DNA of 45,398 bases from Candidatus Woesearchaeota archaeon (GTDB lineage Archaea > Nanobdellota > Nanobdellia > Pacearchaeales > GW2011-AR1): contig CAYMMZ010000001.1 in assembly GCA_964391715.1 (NCBI GenBank), positions 1 to 45,398 on the forward strand, in the 5' to 3' direction. Positions 849-41,691 of this stretch are shown here, in pieces; the stretch's first letter is position 1, and each line of letters begins with the position of its first letter. Both the position numbers and the translations under genes were made by a program. The notes beneath the pieces were generated by a model. It did not search any database. It saw only the letters and a program-made list of their open reading frames with translations, and was not told where the DNA came from.

Positions 849-895
849 CCTGAACGAAACACTTAGGCGAAGCCAAATGTGAAGCCACGAAAATC
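849..895. repeat. conserved ~48-nt hairpin motif, copy 1 of 3
   Basis: CCTGAACGAAAC, then stem-loop CAC..GGC-GAA-GCC..GTG, then AAGCCACGAAAATC. Alignable with 5321-5367 and 10870-10918: the flanks are conserved and the stem sequence differs while pairing is kept. Confidence 0.5.
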
Positions 896-953
896 CCAAC
901 AATCCTTAAAAACCCCACTCCCCTCAACCATAAATGAATTAAAACATTCATAT

Positions 954-1041
954 AAGATTTTCCTAAAATCCGCGAAACAAAGTTTCGCCCACCTTAGGGG
1001 TGGGAAGAAATCTTGAAAAGATTTCTGGGAGGGAAAATCTT
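954..1041. repeat. multi-hairpin structured repeat, copy 1 (ends 15 nt before the smc ATG)
   Basis: Outer stem AAGATTTTCC(954-963)/GGAAAATCTT(1032-1041) encloses three hairpins: GCGAAAC-aaa-GTTTCGC (972-988), CCCACC-ttagg-GGTGGG (988-1004) and AGAAATCTT-gaa-AAGATTTCT (1006-1026). TGGGAGGGAAA follows. The architecture matches 3928-4024. Confidence 0.6.
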
Positions 1042-1055
1042 CCCAAAACATAAAA

Positions 1056-3920
1056 ATGACATATATAAAAAGAATGGTGATGCATGGATTCAAATCCTTC
1101 GCAAGGAAGACAGAAATTCCAATGGAAAATGTGATGAATGTAATTGTCGGGCCAAATGGCTCAGGAAAATCAAATATAACCGATGCACTCTGTTTTGTCC
1201 TTGGAAGACTCTCTATCAAATCAATTAGGGCGGCAAAAGCCGCAAACCTTCTTTTCACCGGAAATAAAACCTATAAAGGTTCTCAAGAAGCATCAGTAGA
1301 ATTGGTCTTCGATAACACTGATAAATCATTCGCAGTAGATACTCCAGAGCTCTCAATCAAAAGAATAGTCAGAAAAAATGGACAATCAATATATAAGATA
1401 AACCACCAAACAAAAACAAGACAAGATCTTTTAGAAATTCTCTCACAAGCAGGAATTGACCCTAATGGATTCAATATTGTCTTACAGGGAGAAATTCAAT
1501 CTCTCGTAAAGTCTTCTGCAGAAGACAGAAGAAAAATTATTGAGGAAGTAGCAGGAATCTCCATATATGAAACTAGAAAACATAAATCTATAAGGGAATT
1601 AGAAAAAACAGAAGAAAAATTAAAGGAAGTCTCAGCCGTTCTAAAAGAAAGAAATTCTTACCTAAAAAATTTAGAAAAAGAAAGACAAGAAGCTGTTCAA
1701 TGGCAAAATCTCGAAAGCACAATCAAAAGATGCAAAGCAACACTTCTCTCCAAAGAAATGAAGGAAAAGGAAAAGGAAATTTGGGGAACAGAAAAGTCGA
1801 TTGAAAATAATGAAAAAGAAATAAAAAATCTGAAAAAGAAAATAGCGGATAAGAATCTCTCAATGGAAGAACTCCAAAACAAGATAAAAATAATAAACAA
1901 AAAAATACAAGCTTCCACTAGTAGTGAACAAGAAACTCTCCATAAAGAGCTATCTGATCTAAAAGCAAATCTCGCAGGGCTAAAAGTGAGGAAAGAGAAT
2001 TTTGAAACACGTCTAGAAAGAGGACATGAAAAACAAATAGACTATAAAGAAAAAATGGAAAATCTAGATGAAGAAATTTCTAAAATTCAAACGGCAAGCC
2101 CTGAAATAAAAAAACAACAGGAAAAGCACAAAGTCCTCCAAGAAAAATTAGATATTTTAGAAAAACATAGGAGAAGATTCTACATCTTAAAATCAGAGCT
2201 TTCAACTGCAGAAAATCAAAAGTCTGAAAAAGAAAAGTTCCTTATAGAATCTAAAAAAGAAATACAATTAATAGAACAAAATATAGAATCTCTCTTTAAT
2301 GAAATCAAATATGGAAAATCTCTAGAAAAAGTCTCTGAACTGAAAAAAGAAACCAAGAGTGAAATAAATTCCTTAGAAGAAAAAATCTCTGGGTTAAGAG
2401 AAGAAATCTTGGAAAAGGAAAAAAGAAATGCTGTTCTTGAAATGGACATAAAAAGAGAAGAAAAATTATCTAAAAATATTTCTGGTTTAGAAATTTGTCC
2501 AATATGTAAGCAAAATGTAGAAGAGGGACACAAACACAAAATTTCTTCTGGGGCAAACCAAAAAATAAATTCGGCAAAAGGAGAATTTGAAAAGAATGTT
2601 CAAACAAGAGTTGAAGATACATATAAGATAGAAAAACTAGAAAAAAGATTATCTGAATTAAAAACAAAGGAAAATGAATTAGAGATAGATGAATTAAAAA
2701 TTAAAAATTCTGTGGAGAGAAAAGAAAATATTAAAAGAATTTCTGCTTCAGAGAAAGAAGCAAAAGAAGATCTAAAAAAAATTAACGAAAAGATTCACAT
2801 CATCCGTTCAGAATTTGAAAAATTAAAAGATATTGAAACGAAATATGATGAAGCAAGAATGAACTTACAAGAATTGGGTCTAGCAGAGATGGATGTAGAT
2901 ACTGAAATTACTCTAAAAAGAAAAGAGGTCAATAGATTAGATTTGGAACTAAAATCTACAATAAGAGATATTGAAGAATCTGAGGTTGAATTAAAAAAAA
3001 TCACAACCATCATCTCTGAGCAAGAAAAACTCTTCTTAAAAAAAGAAATAGAAGAACAAAAGCTCTATGAAAAGTGTGAGAAATTCTTCAATGAAAAAAA
3101 CGGACTTCAAGATCAAGAAAAAGTTCTTGAAACAGATATAATGGGCTTCCAACATAATGTTAGAAATTTTGAAGAAAAGATAAATCATTCAAAAATCCAA
3201 AAAGCCCAATACAATGCTCAAATTGACTCTTTAAAAACAGAACTCTCAGAATTCGGGAATGTCGAGTTAATTCAAGCCCCAATAGACCAAATAAGAGATA
3301 GACTCCAAAAAGCACAATTTAGGATTTCTAAATTTGGAAGTGTTAATATGCGAGCCCTAGAAGCCTTTGAAACAGTCCAAGAACAATGTACTCAAATCCA
3401 AGAAAAAGTAGAAACTATCGAAAAAGAAAAGGAAACTATCGAAAAAATAGTTGCAGAAATTGACAAAAAGAAAAAGAAATCCTTCTTAACAACTCTCAAC
3501 GCAGTAAACCAATACTTTACAAGGAACTTCTCCCAGCTGTCTCGGAAAGGAGAAGTCTTCTTAGAATTAGAAAACAAAAAAGAACCTTTTGAGGGAGGAC
3601 TAAACATCTTAGTAAAAGTCTCCCGTGGCAGATACTTCGACATAGCAAGTCTTTCTGGTGGAGAAAAAACTATGGTAGCTCTTTCCCTAATATTTGCAAT
3701 CCAAGAATACAAACCTTATTGCTTCTACATCTTTGACGAAATCGATGCTGCTCTAGACAAACATAACTCCGAACTCCTAGCCGCCCTAATAAAAAAATAC
3801 ATGAAGACAGGTCAATACATCATAATAACTCACAACGACACTCTCATCAGCGAATCCACTAATCTTTTCGGCGTCTCCATGCAAGAGAATATTTCGAAAA
3901 TCGTATCTTTAAAAGTATAG
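1056..3920 (+). CDS. smc: SMC-family chromosome-organising ATPase, hinge-less, with a CxxC hook-like apex
   Basis: N-terminus MHGFKSF...VGPNGSGKSNITDALCFVLG (Walker A, SMC-type). C-terminus LSGGEKTMVALSLIFAIQ (signature) plus FYIFDEIDAALD (Walker B). Long K/E-rich coiled coil. ICPICKQNVEEGH at aa 480-492 of 954. No globular hinge segment is visible. Confidence 0.85.
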   Translation: MTYIKRMVMHGFKSFARKTEIPMENVMNVIVGPNGSGKSNITDALCFVLGRLSIKSIRAAKAANLLFTGNKTYKGSQEASVELVFDNTDKSFAVDTPELSIKRIVRKNGQSIYKINHQTKTRQDLLEILSQAGIDPNGFNIVLQGEIQSLVKSSAEDRRKIIEEVAGISIYETRKHKSIRELEKTEEKLKEVSAVLKERNSYLKNLEKERQEAVQWQNLESTIKRCKATLLSKEMKEKEKEIWGTEKSIENNEKEIKNLKKKIADKNLSMEELQNKIKIINKKIQASTSSEQETLHKELSDLKANLAGLKVRKENFETRLERGHEKQIDYKEKMENLDEEISKIQTASPEIKKQQEKHKVLQEKLDILEKHRRRFYILKSELSTAENQKSEKEKFLIESKKEIQLIEQNIESLFNEIKYGKSLEKVSELKKETKSEINSLEEKISGLREEILEKEKRNAVLEMDIKREEKLSKNISGLEICPICKQNVEEGHKHKISSGANQKINSAKGEFEKNVQTRVEDTYKIEKLEKRLSELKTKENELEIDELKIKNSVERKENIKRISASEKEAKEDLKKINEKIHIIRSEFEKLKDIETKYDEARMNLQELGLAEMDVDTEITLKRKEVNRLDLELKSTIRDIEESEVELKKITTIISEQEKLFLKKEIEEQKLYEKCEKFFNEKNGLQDQEKVLETDIMGFQHNVRNFEEKINHSKIQKAQYNAQIDSLKTELSEFGNVELIQAPIDQIRDRLQKAQFRISKFGSVNMRALEAFETVQEQCTQIQEKVETIEKEKETIEKIVAEIDKKKKKSFLTTLNAVNQYFTRNFSQLSRKGEVFLELENKKEPFEGGLNILVKVSRGRYFDIASLSGGEKTMVALSLIFAIQEYKPYCFYIFDEIDAALDKHNSELLAALIKKYMKTGQYIIITHNDTLISESTNLFGVSMQENISKIVSLKV

Positions 3921-3927
3921 ATTTTCG

Positions 3928-4024
3928 AAGGATGAAATTAATAAATTGGTGAACGAAGTTCACCCATCGTAAATGGTGGGAGAAATTTTGCAATAAAATT
4001 TCTTGGGAGGGAAATTTCATCCTT
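3928..4024. repeat. multi-hairpin structured repeat, copy 2 (starts 8 nt after the smc stop)
   Basis: Outer stem AAGGATGAAATT(3928-3939)/AATTTCATCCTT(4013-4024) encloses GGTGAAC-gaa-GTTCACC (3948-3964), CCAT-cgtaa-ATGG (3964-3976) and AGAAATTTT-gcaat-AAAATTTCT (3981-4003). TGGGAGGGAAA follows. Confidence 0.6.
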
Positions 4025-4061: not shown

Positions 4062-5279
4062 TTAATCCAATCCTCTTAATCCCACAGAATAAACAACCGC
4101 TGCAACAAAAGAAAATCCTCCACTAATAAACATCGTGTTTGCAATACCTAAAAAATTTATAGAAATTCCTGTCAAAAATATTGCAAGACTATTAGCTAAA
4201 GCCCATCCGACCCCATTAATAGAACTAAGACTTGCCCTAATCTTTGAAGAAAATTCATGATGGAGTGCAGAATCTTCAACAACATCTGTCATCGCCAAGA
4301 GGATTTTTAGAATACTCAAAAGAATAATGCTCACAACAATTGAAGCTATTAATGTTAGCCCTATAATCACAAGGCCTAAAATAACAAATAGTAAAAATAG
4401 AGAATTTCTAAATCCTTTTTTAACCGCAAGTTTTTGTGCCATAATGGGCCCTATTAAAGCGAAGGTGGCAGAAATTGCATAAATTCCTGGAATAACTTCT
4501 GGACCAAACCCGAATACAGCTACGAAAAATAATGGGAGGGCAACGAATAAACTACTAATAGAAAAAGTGCTCGCATAACCTCCTATAAGAAGTGCCCTAA
4601 GATTTCTATTATCCTGGTGAAAAATATATGTAAACGATTCCTTCAACTTAATAATAGATTTTCGAATATAGCTGGCAGGAATCTTTTCTGGAGAAAAATT
4701 CTTCTCAATCATATATTTTCCCGTTATCAAAAAAATCCCTAAATAAACCATGGAAATAGCAAGCCAAATAGCCCTAAAATTTTGAGAAACAATAAGGAAT
4801 CCTATAATTCCTCCGATAAGCCAACCACTTTTCTCGTAAATATACCCTTGAGAAATAAGCCTCACTAACTTGGACTTCTTTTTCGCAATATTCAGCGAAT
4901 CAATCGCCCAAGGTCCAATAGTTCCACTACCAAATGCCCAAGCGATATCGTGAAGAAGCCAAAAGGCTGAGAGAATCCAAAAATTAGTAAATAAAAACAC
5001 TCCTAAAAATGCAATAAAGAAAAGAAACTGGGAAATCATCGCCGCCTTTTTTCGGGAATCATAATCTGCAATTGCACTTGTGGGAAACTCAAAAATCACA
5101 ATCATCAAAGTTGAAATCGCAAAAAGAGTTGTCACAGCAATAACATTAAATCCTAGAGAGATAAAATAAATAAGCCCTAAGGCACTTACCAAGGCTCTCC
5201 TCAAACCATGAGTAAACTCAATGCTATTCCTAATCCTCATCACTTTCTTTTCAAAACTCATGTTCCAACAAACATTCAA
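4062..5279 (-). CDS. multi-pass membrane transporter, MFS-like
   Basis: 405 aa with about 10-12 hydrophobic helices across the whole length and short basic loops. General MFS look; no specific subfamily recognised. Confidence 0.55.
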   Translation of the reverse strand: MNVCWNMSFEKKVMRIRNSIEFTHGLRRALVSALGLIYFISLGFNVIAVTTLFAISTLMIVIFEFPTSAIADYDSRKKAAMISQFLFFIAFLGVFLFTNFWILSAFWLLHDIAWAFGSGTIGPWAIDSLNIAKKKSKLVRLISQGYIYEKSGWLIGGIIGFLIVSQNFRAIWLAISMVYLGIFLITGKYMIEKNFSPEKIPASYIRKSIIKLKESFTYIFHQDNRNLRALLIGGYASTFSISSLFVALPLFFVAVFGFGPEVIPGIYAISATFALIGPIMAQKLAVKKGFRNSLFLLFVILGLVIIGLTLIASIVVSIILLSILKILLAMTDVVEDSALHHEFSSKIRASLSSINGVGWALANSLAIFLTGISINFLGIANTMFISGGFSFVAAVVYSVGLRGLD

Positions 5280-19100: not shown

Positions 19101-19200
19101 AATTAATTTTTAGTAAGTAAGTTCGCAGTGTAAAAATTTTCGTCGCGTATTTAAGTACGCAAGAAAATTTTTACCAAGAAATTGCTACTAAAAATTAATT
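19101..19200. repeat. stop-codon-abutting nested-hairpin repeat, copy C (after nusA)
   Basis: Perfect 15-bp outer arms AATTAATTTTTAGTA (19101-19115) / TACTAAAAATTAATT (19186-19200). Middle stem GTAAAAATTTTC/GAAAATTTTTAC. Apical stem GCGTA-tttaag-TACGC. The right end overlaps the nusA stop (19199-19201) by 2 nt. Confidence 0.7.
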
Positions 19201-19624
19201 ACGCAATCCTAAACTTCGCAATCCTAAAGTAATTCTTCAAAACATCTGAGAGTTCTTTCTCTCGAATACGGTTTCTACCTATCAAAGCCGCCTTATTTTG
19301 ACGACCAGCAGTAAGAGTCATAGAATTCCCATTCAATTCAACCTTAGTAAACTCAACAGGGTCAACAACATCTGCAACAAACTTTGAAATCCCTTCATTA
19401 CTATCTATGGAAGGCATCGCGATAACCTTAATATTCTTTCGAAGAATCTCTCTTAATTTTTTAACATTAATAGCTCCTTTCCCAATCGCCTTAGAAACTT
19501 TCACTTTTGGAACCGCAAAAATAATTTGATTATTATAAACAAAACAATTCTTAGTTGGAACGCCAGAAACTCGAGAGAATAAATTAATATACCTCATCAA
19601 CTGCATGTCAATAGTTCCGGCCAT
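19199..19624 (-). CDS. nusA: archaeal NusA-like KH-domain transcription factor
   Basis: MAGTIDMQLMRYINLFSRVSGVPTKNC...AIGKGAINVKKLREIL shows two KH-like modules. Start placed at the ATG directly after the rpl30e stop; the ORF track extends it to 19651. Confidence 0.85.
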   Translation of the reverse strand: MAGTIDMQLMRYINLFSRVSGVPTKNCFVYNNQIIFAVPKVKVSKAIGKGAINVKKLREILRKNIKVIAMPSIDSNEGISKFVADVVDPVEFTKVELNGNSMTLTAGRQNKAALIGRNRIREKELSDVLKNYFRIAKFRIA

Positions 19625-19625
19625 A

Positions 19626-19904
19626 TTATTTTGCCCTCTTTGTGGGTACACCTTGGTGCGTCAAAGAAAAAACTTCGCTCTCAAAATCAAGATTTAATTC
19701 CTTAGAAAGTTCTGCCTTAGGTTTCAAAACAACAAACTCAATATTTGCAGACTCAAGCCTTTCAACGGTTTCATCTCGTGCATCTTTAGCAATAAAAACT
19801 CCTGATAATTTTTTAGCATTCTTTATAGACTGGCGAATTCCAAATAAAACGCTTCCTTTCTCCATAGCATCCCTAATTTCTTTTAAACTCATGTTATTAA
19901 TCAA
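19626..19904 (-). CDS. rpl30e: 50S ribosomal protein L30e (L7Ae/L30e family)
   Basis: GSVLFGIRQSIKNAKKLSGVFIAKDARDETVERLE fits the L30e pattern, and the position between rpoA and nusA is conserved. Confidence 0.8.
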   Translation of the reverse strand: MINNMSLKEIRDAMEKGSVLFGIRQSIKNAKKLSGVFIAKDARDETVERLESANIEFVVLKPKAELSKELNLDFESEVFSLTHQGVPTKRAK

Positions 19905-19922
19905 AAAAATCTTTATTTAAAT

Positions 19923-22900
19923 TTAACCTTTCTTTTTTTCCTTTGGTTTTTCGGCCAATGAACCGGTAACTCTAACCAAAAGCCCTGGAAGTCCAGTTCC
20001 AACAGGCACAGGTTGATTTAAGATTATATTCTCAATTACAGAAGCTAACTTATCTTTCTTCCCAGTCTTAGTAGCTTGAACAAAGTGTTTATCAGGAGTC
20101 TCAAAACTTGCCCTCGCTAAAATAGAACTTTTGTCAGAGATAATACCCATTCTCGTAATTCCCTTAACTGCACCAGAGCTAGTCATAGTGTCTGCAATAA
20201 GCATTGAGTGCTTAATATCTACATTAAGACCTTGAGAAACAATAACTTTCTGAATTTCATTAATAATAACTCGTCTTGCAACTTCTATTCCCAAAACATT
20301 TGAAACTTCATGAATATCATTGGTAACAGTTTTGTCTGCATCAACTCCTTTAAATGCTAATAGATCTTTCAAGTTAGACCCAGCAGTCAAAATTACATAA
20401 TCTTTACCCCTCTTAACAATCAAAACTTGTGAAATCTTTTTAATTCCTGTCAATATAACTTCTTTTAATTTTTCTTTAGTCTTATAAATCTCTTTAAAAT
20501 CTTCATTAGCCATATCTAAAATCATTCCATCACTTAACTTCTTAACTGCAAATCCTTTATCTTTCAAAACTTCCACTACTTTTTCAAGGGTGATATGTGC
20601 ACTACGAAGAGCTTTTGAATCAATACCAACCTTAATTTTCTTTGAACCAAAATCAATAGCAATCTCCGTTACAATTTCCTTTAACTTAACTTCCTTTATC
20701 TTCTCCGCAATTAACTTTGCTTTTGATTCATTATTGTGATTCTTATCTAAATAAATCTCCATAGCTGGAGTTTTTGGAAGTTTTCTAGCATCCAAAATTT
20801 CTATAATTCTCGGAAGTCCTTGGGTAACTTGCACTTCTGCAACACCTGCAGCGTGGAAAACATTCAAGACCATCTGTGTAGAAGATTCTCCAAAAGATTG
20901 AGCAGTAACAACTCCTATAGCTTCTCCAGGAGAAACTAATTGATTTTTATGAGCTTCTGAAATATCAATTCCATCAAGACCATATTTAAACTGAATAATA
21001 TTATTAGAAGCATCTCTTACAGTCTTATCATAAGCCATAACTAAATCTTGTAGAGCATTAGCCAATCTTCTATACAAATAACCAGATTTTGGAGTCCTAA
21101 GGGCTGTATCCATCAGTCCATCCCTACCAGTCATAGAACCAAAGAAAAATTCATCTGGTCTAAGCCCCTCAATAAAAGAACTATAGATAAATCCTCCAGC
21201 TCGAGGACCCAAATCTCCTTTCTTGAAAGAAGATAAAGTTCTTCCAGTGTATCCAAAATCAATTCTCCGACCATTCAATGCCTGTTGACCAACAGAACAA
21301 GCAATCTGGGTAATATTCAATAAACTCCCTCCAGCCCCACTACTAATCATTTTATTCGCCAAATTCTCCTTAGGAAACCCTTTCTTAACAACATCTCCAA
21401 TTTCTGTTCGAGTCTCATTCAAAACTTGCAACACCTTAATCTCTCGAGTCTCTTCAGCAGTCTTACCCGGTAAAAGTTCCATATTCTTATTATAATAACT
21501 CTCAATTACTTCCTGAGTTTTAATCTCTGCAGAATCAATAATCTTTTTGGTCTTTTCTTTAACTTCTACGGGAACATCTAAATCTCCAATAGACAATGTA
21601 AATCCAGTTCTTGATAAAAATGTAGTTCCCAAAGAAAATACTCGTCCAAGCAAATTCATAGTCTCACCTCTCCCAATCTCTTTATCTGCAATTCTCAAAA
21701 CTTCTCCCTTCTCACTCTTAAAACCTTTATAATCAATATTCTTATCTGAAATTTTCTTAGGAACAATCTTTGAAAAAACGTCCCCTCCAGAATTTGTCTT
21801 ATTAAACCCTGAAAAATCCACTCCAGATTCGTGCAATAATTGTGCAGAATCTTCTTTTGTAAGTTCTCCTTCATTCAACATAAAGTTTCCGCTAACTGCA
21901 TCCTTAACACAACCCATTAGATTCATATTATTCTTTGGGGAAAATAAATTTGAATTAACATCTAAAAGTACCTCTGCCTCAGCCCTCGCCTCTTCAGTCT
22001 GTGGTGCATGAATATTCATCTCATCTCCATCAAAATCTGCATTGTAAGGGTTACAAACAGCGGGGTGAACCCTAAAGGTTTTTCCAGGAAGAACTTTCAC
22101 AAAATGTGCCATTAAAGAGGCTCTATGTAATGAAGGGTGTCGATTGAAAAGCACAACATCTCCATCAACTAAATGTCTCTCAACAATATACCCTGGTTCA
22201 ATTTCTTCTACTAAATCCTCTCTCAGTTCTTCAGTAATCCTCTTCCTCTTCCCGTCAGGTCTCAAAATATAATTTGCTGCAGGATATTCTTCAGATTTAA
22301 TTAATTCCTTCATCCGATTCATATTAGTACTCGTAACCCTCTCCGCAACAGTAAGAATTTTTGCAACTCTTGAAGGAATTCCAACTTCATTCAATTTCAA
22401 ATTTGGATCTGGAGAAATAACTGTTCGAGCCGAGAAATTAACCCTCTTACCAGCCAAGTTCTTTCTAATCCTTCCCTCTTTTCCTTTAATTCTTTCAGTA
22501 ATTGTTTTTAATGGCTGACCACTCCTATGTCTCGCTGGAGGAATTTTTGCAATAGAGTTATCAAAAAATGTAGTAATATGGTATTGCAATAAATCCCATA
22601 AATCTTCAATAATCACTTCAGGTGCACCTGCATTCAAATTCTCCCAAAGTCTCTGATTAGATCGAATAATATCTGACAACTTATGTGTTAAATCATCTTC
22701 AGACCTCTCACCAGATTCTAAAGTAATTGAAGGTCTAACTGTAACTGAAGGGACTAACATAGAGGTCAAAATGCTCCACTCAGGTCTTAAAGTATTCGCA
22801 TTAATCCCAAGAATCTTCAAATCTTCATCAGTTATTTTCACAAGCCTCTCTCTAATCTCTGAAGGAAATAATCTTCTTCTACCACTTCTAAAGGTTGTTG

Positions 22901-26923: not shown

Positions 26924-26998
26924 TCTAAAACATGGCCCCGAGGGGATTTTGATCACCAGATCACCTACTGGGTGAACCCTGGGTTCAAATCTAAAACA
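26924..26998 (-). other. tRNA-Lys 3' trailer module: inverted T-arm copy plus a second, interrupted copy of the tRNA 3' half carrying a 24-nt insert
   Basis: 26-nt direct repeat 26924-26949 = 26990-27015. GATTTGAACCC (minus sense) is complementary to the tRNA's own T arm. The 24-mer TGATCACCAGATCACCTACTGGGT at 26950-26973 is identical to 45318-45341. Confidence 0.7.
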
Positions 26999-27073
26999 TG
27001 GCCCCGAGGGGATTTGAACCCCCGACACCTGGATTAAAAGTCCAGTGCTCTAACCAGGCTGAGCTACGGAGCC
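26999..27073 (-). tRNA. tRNA-Lys (anticodon UUU), no encoded CCA
   Basis: Minus-strand sequence GGCTCCGTAGCTCAGCCTGGTTAGAGCACTGGACTTTTAATCCAGGTGTCGGGGGTTCAAATCCCCTCGGGGCCA folds as a cloverleaf: 7-bp acceptor stem with one G-U, D arm GCTC/GAGC, anticodon arm CTGGA-CTTTTAA-TCCAG, T arm GGGGG-TTCAAAT-CCCCT. Confidence 0.92.
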
Positions 27074-27121
27074 ATAAATTACTTCAGAAAAACCGATTTA
27101 AAAATCTATTCCTTAGGAAAA

Positions 27122-38862: not shown

Positions 38863-41691
38863 ATGAGAAAAGAGGACGTTTTCAAAAAATTGGGGATAAT
38901 CGCAATACTCCTTTCAACAATAGGATTATTCTTTTTGACACTCAACACTGAAGAAGGATTTTTTAAAAATTTATGGGAAAATTTTGCAGGGGAAAGTCAA
39001 GATATGGGAGAAAGTTATAGTGGGGCAGGAACTAATGAAGACACCAATAAAAACTTAGAAGAAGATAAATCCTCAAACCAAGACGATGGTTCCAATTCTG
39101 GAGGTGGAGATAACTCAAGCGGAGGCGGTTCCGGAGGAGGTGGCTCTGGAGGCGGAGGAGGAGGAGGCGGAGGAGGTGGCGGCGGAAGCCCGCCCCCTGA
39201 AATTTGTAACGATGGGATTGATAATGACTTAGACAATAAAGTAGATTGCTCCGACCCAGATTGTTCAAGTGATGATTCGTGTAACTTAGATTCTGAATGT
39301 AACGATGGAATTGACAACGACAACGATGGATGGACAGATTTAGATGACCCAGGATGTATAGATTCAAACGACAATGACGAGACAAATGCCGCAACATCAT
39401 TCGAATGTTCTGATGGAATAGATAATGAAGAATACAATAAAGATGGCCTAATTGATGGTTTCGACCCTACCTGCATATTATGGACAGACACAACCGAAAC
39501 CTCTATTTGTCAAGACGGGATAGACAATGATGGTGACCTTCTATGTGACCTTGCTACAAGCACATGTATCGATTCAAGCACTCCAGGAGATTCTGGATGT
39601 ACGGACCCTAACGATGGAAGCGAAGGAAATACTGAAATTTGTAATAATGATATAGATGATGATGGAGATGGGTTCTCAGATTGTGAAGATTTTGATTGTG
39701 ACAATCAAATAAGCAATGGAGGAAAATGCGAATACCAAACCGAACTTTCCTGCACAGACAACTTTGATAACGATGCAGATAATTTAATTGATTGCTCAGA
39801 CCAAGATTGTAATGGAAAACCTGGAAACTCAAATGGAGATTCGTGTGAATATCCACAAGAACTTAGTTGTGGAGATGGTTTCGACAACGACAGAGACTTA
39901 AAAATTGATTGTGCAGATTCAGACTGTGAGCTGTTCCCTGGATGTTCTCCCGAAAATGAATGTTCAGATGGTATAGACAATGATGGGAATGGACTAACTG
40001 ATTGTGCGGACCCTGAATGTGATGGACTACTCGGAGATAACCAAGGAAATAGATGTGAATATGGAATTGAGTTAACTTGTATAGATGCTTTTGACAACAA
40101 TGCAAATGGTTTAGTTGATTGTAATGACTTAAGTTGTAATAGTGACCCTGGTTGTCAAACAAGTGAAGATGAAATCTGTAATGATGGAATTGATAATGAT
40201 AACAATGGGTTTACAGATTGTCAAGACAATGCTTGTATAGGACAGCAAGGACCAAATGGAGGAACTTGTGAATTACCTGAAGCTAGTTGTTCAGACCTCT
40301 ATGACAATGATGGAGATGGGGCAACAGATTGCGCAGACATAAACTGTGTAAATGACCCTTCTTGTAGCTCAGAAGAAGGATTCGACATGAAGGTAATTCA
40401 TATAACTCCTACAACAGGATATGTGCAAGATATCAATGGGATAGATATTTACGGCTCTTCAGAAACTCTTGCACAATGGCCCTTAGCATGGGCAATCAAA
40501 AATGCAAATGATATAAATGGCAGAAGAATTGACCTCTACGGAACTTCGGGAAAATTGACATTTGAAGGAACTCCTGCAAATAATTTCATGATAGATTCTA
40601 TGGACTCTTCAGCAAACAATCCAATAATTATCACGGGGAAAAATGGAGCAACAATCGATGCCCTCGGAGCCTCAGACACAATCTCTGTATTATCTGAAAA
40701 TGGACCTTCTCATACTTTCAATTACATTATCTGGAAGGATTTAACAATTATTCCAGGATACAGGGCAGCAGTCCACATTGGAGCCTTAACAGATACCTTA
40801 TGGGAGGGAAACCCAGGATATAGCGGATGGGAATTTGACAATGTAGTAATGGATGGGCTCTGGAGTCACAAAGAAAATTCAGGACCAGTATCTAAATGGG
40901 CAATGCAACTATTCGCAACAAAAGACTTTGTATATAAGAACGGAATAGTTAGAAACATAGAGCAAGAGCACGCAATCTACATGCACAATCCTGCAGGACC
41001 AACCTTAGTTGACAATAATCAATTCTATCAGCTCGGAAGGACAGGGGTTCAAGTAACAGCAAGAGAAAATGAATATGGTTATACTAATCTCCCTGCAAAC
41101 CCTTGGCCAATAACTATCACCAATAATATTATGGCAGACACAGGACTACAAGAGGGAGATTTTTTTGCAGGACAAACAATAACAATTGTCGGAAGAAATA
41201 CGGGAACAATCACAGTAACAGGAAACACTGTAAGTTATTGTGAGGATTTATACACTCAAGGTTTGTGTGACGCAGTCCAACAAAGAATAGATGCAAAATT
41301 CGGTCCCGGAATGAGAGCCTATGGCTCTGGAGCAACAGTGACATGGACAACCCCAAAGGAAAATTATGGAATTAGTGGACATTTAATTTATGCAAACAAT
41401 AACATAATCTATGGTTCTAATTATAATGGCGAAGCCGGTAGAAATCCTCCAGTGAGCATATCTGCAATGACTACGGCAGAAATCTATAACAACCTAATCC
41501 AAACAGGAGCAAACAAAGATGCCTTAATCATAGGAGAAGGAGACCAAGCTCATCCAATACCTTTAAATTATTGTGCAACAAATAATATAATCAACAACGG
41601 CGGGGTTATCAAGGTTGGTGGTTTTGGAAGTGATAAAATTAGGACCCAGCCAATCCAATTTGGAAACGCAGTTTGCCCTCCTCAAGCTTAA
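38863..41691 (+). CDS. giant membrane-anchored surface protein: Gly/Ser/Asp linker, 11 Cys/Asp-rich metal-binding-type repeats, C-terminal right-handed beta-helix domain
   Basis: Start at MRKEDVF (the ORF-track start at 38752 is TTG and overlaps rfcS). Transmembrane helix LGIIAILLSTIGLFFLTL. Poly-G tract. Repeats of the type C.DGIDND.DG..DC.D..C from 39204 to 40370. The tail carries N-rich PbH1-like rungs (TITNNIMADTG, VTGNTVSY, YANNNIIYG, IYNNLIQTG, TNNIINNGG). Confidence 0.8.
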   Translation: MRKEDVFKKLGIIAILLSTIGLFFLTLNTEEGFFKNLWENFAGESQDMGESYSGAGTNEDTNKNLEEDKSSNQDDGSNSGGGDNSSGGGSGGGGSGGGGGGGGGGGGGSPPPEICNDGIDNDLDNKVDCSDPDCSSDDSCNLDSECNDGIDNDNDGWTDLDDPGCIDSNDNDETNAATSFECSDGIDNEEYNKDGLIDGFDPTCILWTDTTETSICQDGIDNDGDLLCDLATSTCIDSSTPGDSGCTDPNDGSEGNTEICNNDIDDDGDGFSDCEDFDCDNQISNGGKCEYQTELSCTDNFDNDADNLIDCSDQDCNGKPGNSNGDSCEYPQELSCGDGFDNDRDLKIDCADSDCELFPGCSPENECSDGIDNDGNGLTDCADPECDGLLGDNQGNRCEYGIELTCIDAFDNNANGLVDCNDLSCNSDPGCQTSEDEICNDGIDNDNNGFTDCQDNACIGQQGPNGGTCELPEASCSDLYDNDGDGATDCADINCVNDPSCSSEEGFDMKVIHITPTTGYVQDINGIDIYGSSETLAQWPLAWAIKNANDINGRRIDLYGTSGKLTFEGTPANNFMIDSMDSSANNPIIITGKNGATIDALGASDTISVLSENGPSHTFNYIIWKDLTIIPGYRAAVHIGALTDTLWEGNPGYSGWEFDNVVMDGLWSHKENSGPVSKWAMQLFATKDFVYKNGIVRNIEQEHAIYMHNPAGPTLVDNNQFYQLGRTGVQVTARENEYGYTNLPANPWPITITNNIMADTGLQEGDFFAGQTITIVGRNTGTITVTGNTVSYCEDLYTQGLCDAVQQRIDAKFGPGMRAYGSGATVTWTTPKENYGISGHLIYANNNIIYGSNYNGEAGRNPPVSISAMTTAEIYNNLIQTGANKDALIIGEGDQAHPIPLNYCATNNIINNGGVIKVGGFGSDKIRTQPIQFGNAVCPPQA

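What the first reader, a model, noticed from the sequence alone, without database searches (positions are those of the whole stretch)
954..4024. smc is bracketed by two copies of a four-helix structured element with compensatory stem changes
The copies at 954-1041 (ends 15 nt before the ATG) and 3928-4024 (starts 8 nt after the stop) are in direct orientation and share one architecture. An outer 10-12 bp stem encloses three hairpins and is followed by the invariant TGGGAGGGAAA. Every stem differs between copies while keeping its pairing:
- Outer stem: AAGATTTTCC/GGAAAATCTT versus AAGGATGAAATT/AATTTCATCCTT.
- Hairpin 1: GCGAAAC/GTTTCGC versus GGTGAAC/GTTCACC.
- Hairpin 2: CCAC/GTGG versus CCAT/ATGG.
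- Hairpin 3: AGAAATCTT/AAGATTTCT versus AGAAATTTT/AAAATTTCT.

Covariation of this kind argues for selection on structure (RNA or cruciform DNA) rather than simple repeat decay. Direct repeats flanking a single gene could also mediate excision or inversion.
Basis: seen in the sequence. Interest (0 to 1): 0.6.

Follow-up and report, generated by a model that had tools for sequence, protein, structure and literature searches.

The report
Selfish hairpin repeats flanking archaeal smc
The two structured elements around smc are real. They are two separate insertions of a small, scattered, hairpin-forming repeat in a tiny DPANN archaeon, and the same repeat also sits in frame inside essential genes, much like the "selfish DNA in protein genes" of Rickettsia, so it is not a device that belongs to smc.

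Summary
Elements at 954-1041 and 3928-4024 fold as an outer stem enclosing three hairpins (z about -4.3) and share TGGGAGGGAAA.

They are not specific to smc. Covariance models find 9 copies in this 0.8-Mb Pacearchaeota-like (DPANN) genome. Across 13 copies from three organisms, 90% of stem cells pair and 27 of 31 pairs change on both sides.

None of about 90 related genomes has the element at smc. In relatives the conserved smc TATA box lies about 25 nt from the ATG. Here the element sits between them, and the second copy starts 7 nt after the stop codon.

Two copies in this genome lie in frame inside diphthine synthase (+25 aa) and GatA (+31 aa). These inserts are absent from all relatives compared. 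More in-frame copies occur in two metagenome contigs and one congener.

The flanks carry short A-rich direct repeats (permutation p = 0.007-0.02). Copies mostly point the same way as genes (14 of 16). They cluster locally. Distribution among relatives is very patchy.

Best reading: an RPE/MITE-like palindromic mobile element whose structure is somehow maintained.

This scan has reported the same kind of element, as other sequence families, in other DPANN genomes.

The parts
954..1041 (+). Copy 1 (smc_up), long form. Outer stem AAGATTTTCC/GGAAAATCTT. Hairpin 1 GCGAAAC/GTTTCGC. Hairpin 2 CCACC/GGTGG. Hairpin 3 AGAAATCTT/AAGATTTCT. G-tracts GGGGTGGG ... GGGAGGG. It lies between the conserved smc TATA box and the ATG.
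   Evidence: (117.9 bits with R1). Absent upstream of smc in relatives.
3928..4024 (+). Copy 2 (smc_dn), long form and the most diverged copy. Outer stem AAGGATGAAATT/AATTTCATCCTT. It starts 7 nt after the smc stop codon, in the gap between convergent genes, and is followed by TTTTC.
   Evidence: 38.5 bits with R1; 67.6 bits with R2. Absent downstream of smc in relatives.
1026..1036 (+). 3' G-tract motif TGGGAGGGAAA of copy 1. The family consensus is UUGGGnGGGRAAAUC. Intragenic copies read it as LGGES or (E)GKS.
4004..4014 (+). The same 3' G-tract motif in copy 2.
903..912 (+). smc promoter box CCTTAAAAAC, within CAACAATCCTTAAAAACC. It is conserved in relatives, where it lies about 21-27 nt upstream of the ATG (leaderless-type spacing). 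Here it is about 145 nt upstream, because the element and its flanks are inserted.
   Evidence: sequence comparison with L017, L019 and L057.
941..947 (+). Left copy of a possible target-site duplication, AAAACAT.
   Evidence: Same-copy flanks match better than cross-copy flanks (p = 0.007-0.02).
1045..1051 (+). Right copy of the possible target-site duplication, AAAACAT.
1056..3920 (+). smc (954 aa), the host gene flanked by the two insertions. It is full length and collinear with orthologues in 80 related MAGs. It is not part of the element.

Best explanation
The two elements are independent insertions of a small non-coding palindromic repeat family. The family has a long form of about 85-95 nt and a short form of about 64-68 nt that lacks hairpin 3. 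It lives in a few Pacearchaeota-like DPANN archaea and behaves like a MITE or a Rickettsia palindromic element (RPE).

**Shown:**
- The family is dispersed, with 9 copies in this genome.
- Orthologous sites in relatives are empty.
- One copy landed between the smc TATA box and start codon, and another just after the stop codon.
- Other copies landed in frame inside essential genes. There they add a 25-31-residue stretch that the model places between secondary-structure elements of an otherwise confident fold.
- The pairing of all stems is kept although copies are only 34-73% identical.

**Inferred:**
- The element inserts at A-rich CAAAA-like sites and makes a short target duplication of about 5-10 bp.
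- It moves or is maintained through a single-stranded intermediate of the sense strand, either ssDNA or RNA, in which the four-helix fold is needed.
- Pairing is kept either because folding is required for propagation or by arm-to-arm correction in the folded state.
- The mobilising enzyme is unknown.

At smc the effect would be a new structured 5' leader of about 115 nt on a formerly leaderless-type gene, plus a structured 3' end. Both are by-products of insertion and not a dedicated smc control.
For: - **Copy number.** There are 7 strong copies plus 2 weaker or variant ones in the genome.
- **No known RNA family.** No Rfam family matches at E <= 5.
- **Empty sites in relatives.**
  - smc flanks in 80 loci.
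  - The hef promoter in 6 congeners.
  - dph5 in 8 congeners and 117 of 119 best homologues.
  - gatA in 8 relatives.
- **In-frame intragenic copies.**
  - Dph5 gains 75 nt and GatA gains 93 nt in this genome.
  - Further in-frame copies are L139 (Dph5, same site, other frame), L140 (Dph5 at a second site, and a pyruvate:ferredoxin oxidoreductase (POR) gene) and G020 (308-aa ORF).
- **Protein fold.** The AF2 model of Dph5 has mean pLDDT 87.6. In the insert, residues 60-72 score below 50 and lie between helix 42-61 and strand 78-81, while the rest of the fold is confident.
- **Flanking direct repeats.** They exceed the cross-copy control (p = 0.02 and 0.007). Examples are AAAACAT at smc, CCAAAA(A)CAA at hef and TCAAAAG in L139.
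- **Patchy distribution.** 9 copies here, 6 in 20.8 kb of L140, 1 in G020, 0 in 39 other genus genomes, 0 in 39 other genera, and 0 in 668 kb of relatives' loci.
- **Decay at one site.** P0067 carries what looks like a decayed insert where P0103 has an intact one.
- **Strand and position bias.**
  - 14 of 16 copies are in gene sense (p = 0.004).
  - Stems hold 14 G.U pairs against 3 A.C.
  - Copies cluster locally (p = 0.006).
- **Known precedent.** RPEs have terminal inverted repeats, predicted stem-loops and in-frame insertions in conserved genes (PMC2229807, PMC10969869).
Against: - No transposase or autonomous partner was found. Y1_Tnp, the TnpB zinc-ribbon domain and DDE_Tnp_1 are absent from this 85%-complete MAG.
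- Copies in this genome are old and diverged (34-73% identical) yet keep 90% pairing. Neutral decay of dead selfish DNA would not do that, so some selection or correction on structure is still needed.
- The target duplications are short, imperfect and A-rich in an A-rich genome. The Dph5 copy of this genome shows none.
- No strain with an empty site was seen. The metagenome contigs found are the same organism and already carry the copies.
- Transcription and translation of the copies were not measured.
Confidence: 0.7

Rival explanations
1. It is a functional structured RNA module, possibly mobile in origin but now kept by the host. It would be carried in 5' leaders and 3' ends of mRNAs, or made as a small RNA. 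It would bind a protein or stabilise or terminate transcripts of genes such as smc, hef, ftsZ and aspS.
For: - Pairing stays at 90% although copies are only 34-73% identical, and 27 of 31 pairs covary.
- G.U pairs outnumber A.C 14 to 3, and copies are mostly in gene sense. Both point to a fold on the transcribed-sense strand.
- Three copies end 8-15 nt before a start codon (smc, hef, and a short ORF on C24).
- The ftsZ copy starts about 25 nt after the ftsZ ORF end and is followed by a T-rich tract.
- TATA-like boxes lie 25-37 nt upstream of several copies.
- The conserved single-stranded motifs UAAAAUC and UUGGGnGGGAAAAUC look like binding sites.
Against: - The element is not conserved at any orthologous gene in about 90 relatives.
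- Six copies lie in frame inside unrelated proteins, where an RNA signal has no obvious role.
- One copy is antisense to both of its neighbours.
- Host genes share no function.
- No Rfam family matches.
Confidence: 0.2
2. It is a DNA-level element whose active part is the four G-tracts. These could form a G-quadruplex, with hairpin 3 as a long loop. Alternatively the cruciform could act as a site for a chromosome-organising, replication or topology protein.
For: - Six of the 24 long-loop G4 motifs in the whole 33-39% GC genome lie in the 9 copies. Three of the 6 L140 copies have a canonical short-loop G4 motif.
- G-tracts are kept even in copies that have lost the hairpin 2 pairing (aspS_up, gatA_in).
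- REP/BIME-type repeats in bacteria are known protein-binding sites (background knowledge).
Against: - Only 9 of 17 copies have four G3 tracts, and G020 has one.
- The stems covary as base pairs, which a G4 alone does not explain.
- Distribution among close relatives is too patchy for a core chromosomal function.
Confidence: 0.07
3. The two direct copies act as a recombination pair that excises, inverts or mobilises smc as a cassette.
For: Direct orientation on both sides of a single gene.
Against: - smc is native, 954 aa and collinear in 80 relatives that lack the elements.
- The copies are about 60% identical with at most 11 nt of shared run.
- Other copies are solitary or lie inside genes.
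- No Y1, TnpB or DDE transposase genes were found in the genome, and integrase/recombinase families were not searched.
Confidence: 0.02

Closest known systems
Rickettsia palindromic elements (RPE; Ogata et al. 2000 and 2002, as summarised in PMC2229807 and PMC10969869)
   Same: - Short non-autonomous repeats with terminal inverted repeats and a predicted stem-loop fold.
- Dispersed in a reduced genome, both between genes and in frame inside conserved housekeeping genes.
- Inside genes they add a tolerated peptide.
- No known transposase.
   Different: - The host is an archaeon (DPANN), and no sequence relation to RPEs is expected or was tested.
- The element is smaller (64-95 nt against 105-146 bp).
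- The fold is a four-helix junction, or a three-helix short form, not one long hairpin.
- At least two reading frames are used.
- There is a G-tract motif, a strong gene-sense orientation bias, and signs of short target duplications.
Prokaryotic MITEs and small palindromic repeats (Correia/NEMIS, ERIC, RUP, BOX, YPAL; Sulfolobus SM1-4 MITEs)
   Same: - Size and terminal inverted repeats.
- Likely target-site duplications.
- Filled and empty orthologous sites.
- Insertion into promoters, leaders and 3' ends.
- Patchy distribution among lineages.
   Different: - No autonomous IS with matching ends was found.
- The end sequences themselves covary between copies and are not conserved.
- Copies are strongly diverged yet still paired.
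Other RPE-like hairpin repeats of DPANN archaea reported earlier by this scan (e1-3193486, e1-1236447, e1-1499390, e1-4542517), and the ~110-nt stop-codon-anchored hairpin family in this same genome (e1-3400474)
   Same: The same kind of element in the same kind of host: small palindromic repeats, in frame in essential genes, and in gene sense.
   Different: - This is a different sequence family. A word look-up with a copy from this genome and one from L140 found no look-alike apart from this same stretch.
- The 19101-19200 element of this window shares no motif with it and gave no hit among the models' matches.
- The architecture here is a multi-branch junction with G-tracts.

Membership tests
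RPE-like protein-coding palindromic repeats (functional class) | Short repeat with terminal inverted repeats and a stable predicted stem-loop fold | tested here: met
   z = -4.2 to -4.8. The outer stem of 6-12 bp is present in nearly all of the 13 aligned copies (83% of its cells pair).
RPE-like protein-coding palindromic repeats (functional class) | In-frame insertion in conserved protein genes with the ORF kept | tested here: met
   Dph5 gains 25 aa and GatA gains 31 aa in this genome. The L139, L140 (two copies) and G020 copies are also in frame.
RPE-like protein-coding palindromic repeats (functional class) | The inserted peptide lies in a tolerated loop of the host protein | tested here: met
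   AF2 model of Dph5: the fold is confident (mean pLDDT 87.6). In the insert, residues 60-72 score below 50 and lie between a helix and a strand. This is a prediction only.
RPE-like protein-coding palindromic repeats (functional class) | Sequence homology to Rickettsia RPE-1 to RPE-10 | not tested
   No RPE sequences were compared. The host is an archaeon, so this report files the element as an analogue, not a member.
MITE | Target-site duplication | tested here: inconclusive
   Same-copy flanks share longer direct matches than cross-copy flanks (mean exact run 5.3 nt against 4.5 nt, p = 0.007). The repeats are short and A-rich, and the Dph5 copy has none.
MITE | Filled versus empty orthologous sites | tested here: met
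   Sites at smc 5' and 3', the hef promoter, dph5 and gatA are empty in all relatives compared.
MITE | A cognate autonomous IS or transposase with the same ends | tested here: inconclusive
   PF01797, PF07282 and PF01609 gave no match in the own genome. Only three families were tested, and the MAG is 85% complete.
cis-regulatory RNA or riboswitch of smc | Conserved position at the orthologous gene across species | tested here: not met
   0 hits with R2 or R3 in 80 smc loci of relatives.
cis-regulatory RNA or riboswitch of smc | Match to a described RNA family | tested here: not met
   The Rfam 15 gathering scan found only tRNA-Lys. The E <= 5 scan of 7 loci found nothing at the elements. ARAGORN found no tRNA-like gene there.
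Site-specific recombination pair or gene cassette (attC-like) | Near-identical recombination sites, and a cargo gene that is variable between genomes | tested here: not met
   The copies are 60% identical. smc is present, 954 aa and collinear in relatives that lack the elements.

The most novel reading that the evidence does not exclude
The family may be a strand-specific structured mobile element of DPANN archaea that spreads through an RNA or single-stranded-DNA intermediate folded as a four-helix junction with a G-quadruplex-prone core. Its fold would be actively maintained after insertion. Copies in the leaders of leaderless-type genes such as smc and hef would then have been recruited as new structured 5' UTRs that change how those genes are expressed.
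Probability: 0.2. Interest if true: 0.7.

Novelty: new variant of a known kind. Interest (0 to 1): 0.42.

Why it matters
In-frame "protein-coding palindromes" were described as a peculiarity of Rickettsia. This family shows the same behaviour in an unrelated, equally reduced archaeal lineage, with several differences:
- a branched fold;
- a gene-sense orientation bias;
- base pairing kept through heavy sequence divergence.

That combination raises two questions. How does such an element move when no transposase is visible? What keeps its structure intact?

In practice the family is a source of annotation errors, such as spurious "conserved RNA motifs" or odd loops in essential enzymes. It is also a natural experiment on converting leaderless genes into genes with a structured leader.

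Tried and rejected
- **tRNA or tRNA-like gene.** ARAGORN and the Rfam tRNA model hit only the real tRNA-Lys at 26998-27074. The loop sizes are also wrong.
- **Any Rfam family, including riboswitches and ribozymes.** None matched at E <= 5.
- **Species-unique element.** I first concluded this from a strict pattern (0 of 400 family genomes), R2 on 60 relatives and a metagenome scan that returned only the same organism. I withdrew it when Dph5 homologues with inserts led to copies in L139 and L140, and R3 found one in G020. The strict pattern had missed the short form and the GCGAG variants.
- **Viral origin.** Two scans of viral contigs gave nothing, or only GC-rich chance matches without model support.
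- **Archaeal origin-recognition boxes, bulge-helix-bulge introns, integron attC sites.** I considered these from the sequence and rejected them. There is no AT-rich unwinding region or orc/cdc6 context, the outer stem has no 3-nt bulges, and the intragenic copies are in frame and free of stops.
- **Shine-Dalgarno or internal-promoter role for GGGAGGG.** The motif lies 23-29 nt from the ATG, and in other copies it varies to GGGCGGG or GGGTGGG.
- **MAFFT alignments of the copies (A1-A3).** These were not structure-consistent. I used model-guided alignments instead.
Full report
**1. The observation**

Each folds into an outer stem that encloses three hairpins. MFE is -38.0 and -32.4 kcal/mol, z = -4.4 and -4.2, and none of 200 dinucleotide shuffles folds as well.

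TGGGAGGGAAA occurs exactly three times in the genome. Two hits are in these elements. The third, at 40801, is coding sequence.

smc is the ORF 1056-3920. Copy 1 ends 14 nt before its ATG. Copy 2 starts 7 nt after its stop codon, in the gap before a convergent gene (4062-5279, minus strand).

One correction: hairpin 2 is CCACC/GGUGG versus CCAUC/GGUGG. That is a single transition to a G.U pair, not a compensatory double change.

**2. It is a dispersed family, not a pair**

- **Rfam and ARAGORN.** Rfam (gathering thresholds on the window; E <= 5 on seven loci) and ARAGORN find nothing at the elements.
- **Seven strong copies.** A covariance model built from copy 1 alone (R1) found seven copies in the 795,606-bp, 55-contig, 85%-complete genome:
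  - the two at smc;
  - C6:6299-6384, 15 nt upstream of a Hef-like helicase ATG;
  - C24:825-913;
  - C10:18980-19063, 53 nt upstream of an Asp/Asn-tRNA synthetase-like gene;
  - C10:15720-15804;
  - C10:11668-11758, about 25 nt after the ftsZ ORF end.
- **Two more copies.** The seven-copy model R2 added C42:4638-4704, a short form lacking hairpin 3, and a degenerate copy at C11:18761-18853.
- **Covariation.** On the seven-copy alignment, 92.9% of stem cells pair (71% in shuffles, at most 58% with slid partners), and 25 of 31 pairs change on both sides. On 13 copies from three organisms the figures are 90.1%, 27 of 31, and 0 of 500 shuffles as high. These alignments are fitted to the model, which favours the structure. 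Even so, the slid-partner control is far lower.
- **Divergence.** Copies in this genome are only 34-73% identical. The two smc copies are 60% identical.

**3. The organism and its relatives**

The SMC protein retrieves 80 loci from Pacearchaeota-, Woesearchaeota- and Nanoarchaeota-labelled MAGs, so the host is a DPANN archaeon. All have a collinear smc of about 954 aa. Neither R2 nor R3 finds the element in any of these loci.

Upstream of smc, relatives share the promoter CAACAATCCTTAAAAACC about 21-27 nt before the ATG, a leaderless-type spacing. In the window the same box is at 903-912. About 120 nt, including the element, separate it from the position it would normally hold.

The Hef-like gene shows the same pattern. 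Congeners have YTTATAAAC about 20-25 nt before the ATG. In this genome TTTATAAAAA is followed by the element and then the ATG.

The copies at smc are therefore insertions into a native locus.

**4. In-frame copies inside genes**

- **Dph5 (diphthine synthase).** The C42 copy lies inside the gene. Eight congeners match residues 1-49 and 76-260 contiguously, so 25 residues (ELWRFSNISEAEGFAQEGGQEGKSP, 75 nt) are an insert. Among the 119 best homologues in the large protein collection, only one has extra residues at that site.
- **GatA.** The C10:15720 copy lies inside the gene. Eight relatives lack 31 residues (93 nt) found here.
- **Predicted structure.** An AlphaFold2 model of the Dph5 allele is confident overall (mean pLDDT 87.6, pTM 0.81). 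In the insert, residues 60-72 score below 50 and lie between helix 42-61 and strand 78-81. That is what a tolerated loop would look like.

**5. The family outside this genome**

The one Dph5 homologue with an insert at the same site (P0002, contig L139) carries a short-form copy read in another frame. A second homologue (P0103, contig L140) carries a copy at a different site in Dph5.

The 20.8 kb held from L140 contain six copies. One is in frame inside a pyruvate:ferredoxin oxidoreductase (POR) gene.

With R3, built on 13 copies, the results were:
- one more copy in congener G020, again in frame inside a 308-aa ORF;
- nothing in 39 other genomes of the genus;
- nothing in 39 other genera of the family;
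- nothing in 668 kb of relatives' loci.

The distribution is therefore very patchy.

P0067 has an unstructured insert at the same site as P0103 that looks like a decayed copy.

My earlier conclusion that the family is unique to this species was wrong. It came from a pattern that was too strict.

**6. Clues to mechanism**

- **Flanking repeats.** Direct repeats flank several copies: AAAACAT at smc_up, CCAAAA(A)CAA at hef_up, TCAAA at gatA, TCAAAAG in L139 and AGCAGA(A)CAA in L140_A. Same-copy flank pairs score higher than cross-copy pairs (permutation p = 0.02 and 0.007). This suggests short target duplications at A-rich sites, but it is not proof.
- **Orientation.** Fourteen of 16 orientable copies point with the adjacent or host gene (p = 0.004). 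All six intragenic copies are in sense. The C24 copy is antisense to both neighbours.
- **Strand of the fold.** Stems contain 14 G.U pairs but only 3 A.C. That favours a fold on the sense strand, although the model itself prefers G.U.
- **Clustering.** Three pairs of copies lie within 4.1 kb of each other, where 0.37 are expected (p = 0.006). Bracketing of smc is an instance of this clustering.
- **Nested insertion.** The ftsZ copy sits inside an older 9-bp inverted repeat that is followed by a T-rich tract, as if it had inserted into a terminator-like hairpin.
- **No transposase.** No Y1 transposase, TnpB or DDE_Tnp_1 domain is found in the MAG.
- **G-tracts.** Four G-tracts are a frequent but not universal feature. 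Six of the genome's 24 long-loop G4 motifs lie in the copies.

**7. Interpretation**

The best-supported reading (about 0.7) is an RPE/MITE-like selfish palindromic element. RPEs are 105-146-bp repeats with terminal inverted repeats and predicted stem-loops. They are found between genes and fused in frame into conserved genes, and no transposase is known for them (PMC2229807, PMC10969869).

This family works in the same way but is not a member of that family:
- the host is an archaeon;
- the element is smaller;
- the fold is branched;
- there are long and short forms;
- two reading frames are used;
- there is a sense-orientation bias.

Plain selfish decay does not explain why pairing is kept at 34-73% identity. 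One possibility is that folding is needed for propagation and the copies come from diverged masters. Another is that arms are corrected against each other in the folded state. A third is that the host now uses some copies as RNA structures (rival, about 0.2).

The excision or inversion idea is not supported.

**8. Context within this scan**

Earlier notes, which I read only after reaching the RPE-like reading, report other RPE-like hairpin repeats in other DPANN genomes and a different hairpin family in this genome. Word look-ups with a copy from this genome and one from L140 found no look-alike apart from this same stretch. This is a further, distinct family of a kind the scan has met before.

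Noticed in passing
G000:C10:11640-11790 (own genome, not in the window): The copy after ftsZ is nested inside an outer 9-bp inverted repeat, GGTATTGAA...TTCAATACC, followed by TTTATTTTTATTTTTTATT. It looks as if it inserted into the loop of an existing terminator-like hairpin.
   Followed up: partly
L140:13724-14808 and 19555-20430: Two TrmB-family paralogues in the JGI contig Ga0208904_1000189 are each followed by a copy of the element with near-identical upstream flanks (…CAGTTTACTCCATG…). Gene and element were probably duplicated together.
   Followed up: no
L142:4395-5162 (P0067) versus L140:10001-10804 (P0103): Both Dph5 genes have an insert at a second, shared site. P0103's is an intact element (…GVGGEST…). 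P0067's (…FLGQEST…) no longer folds or scores, so it looks like a decayed orthologous copy.
   Followed up: partly
window 880-915 and relatives L017, L019, L057 at about 2960-2985: The smc promoter sequence CAACAA(A)TCCTTAAAAACC is conserved across species at leaderless-type distance from the ATG. The hef promoters share YTTATAAAC. Both are useful as a local TATA/BRE consensus for these archaea.
   Followed up: partly
window 19101-19200: The nested-hairpin element noted by an earlier report is a different family. It has no GCGAA/TTCGC hairpin and no G-tract motif, and it did not appear among the R2 or R3 matches in this genome.
   Followed up: partly
G000 whole genome: Only 24 long-loop G-quadruplex motifs occur in 0.8 Mb, and only two have the canonical short loops. 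Six of the 24 are in copies of this element.
   Followed up: partly
G000:C10:16505-16604 and 17 other contigs: Runs of 100 N (withheld or scaffold gaps) interrupt several contigs. One lies inside the gatA ORF upstream of the insertion, so the GatA N-terminus could not be read.
   Followed up: no
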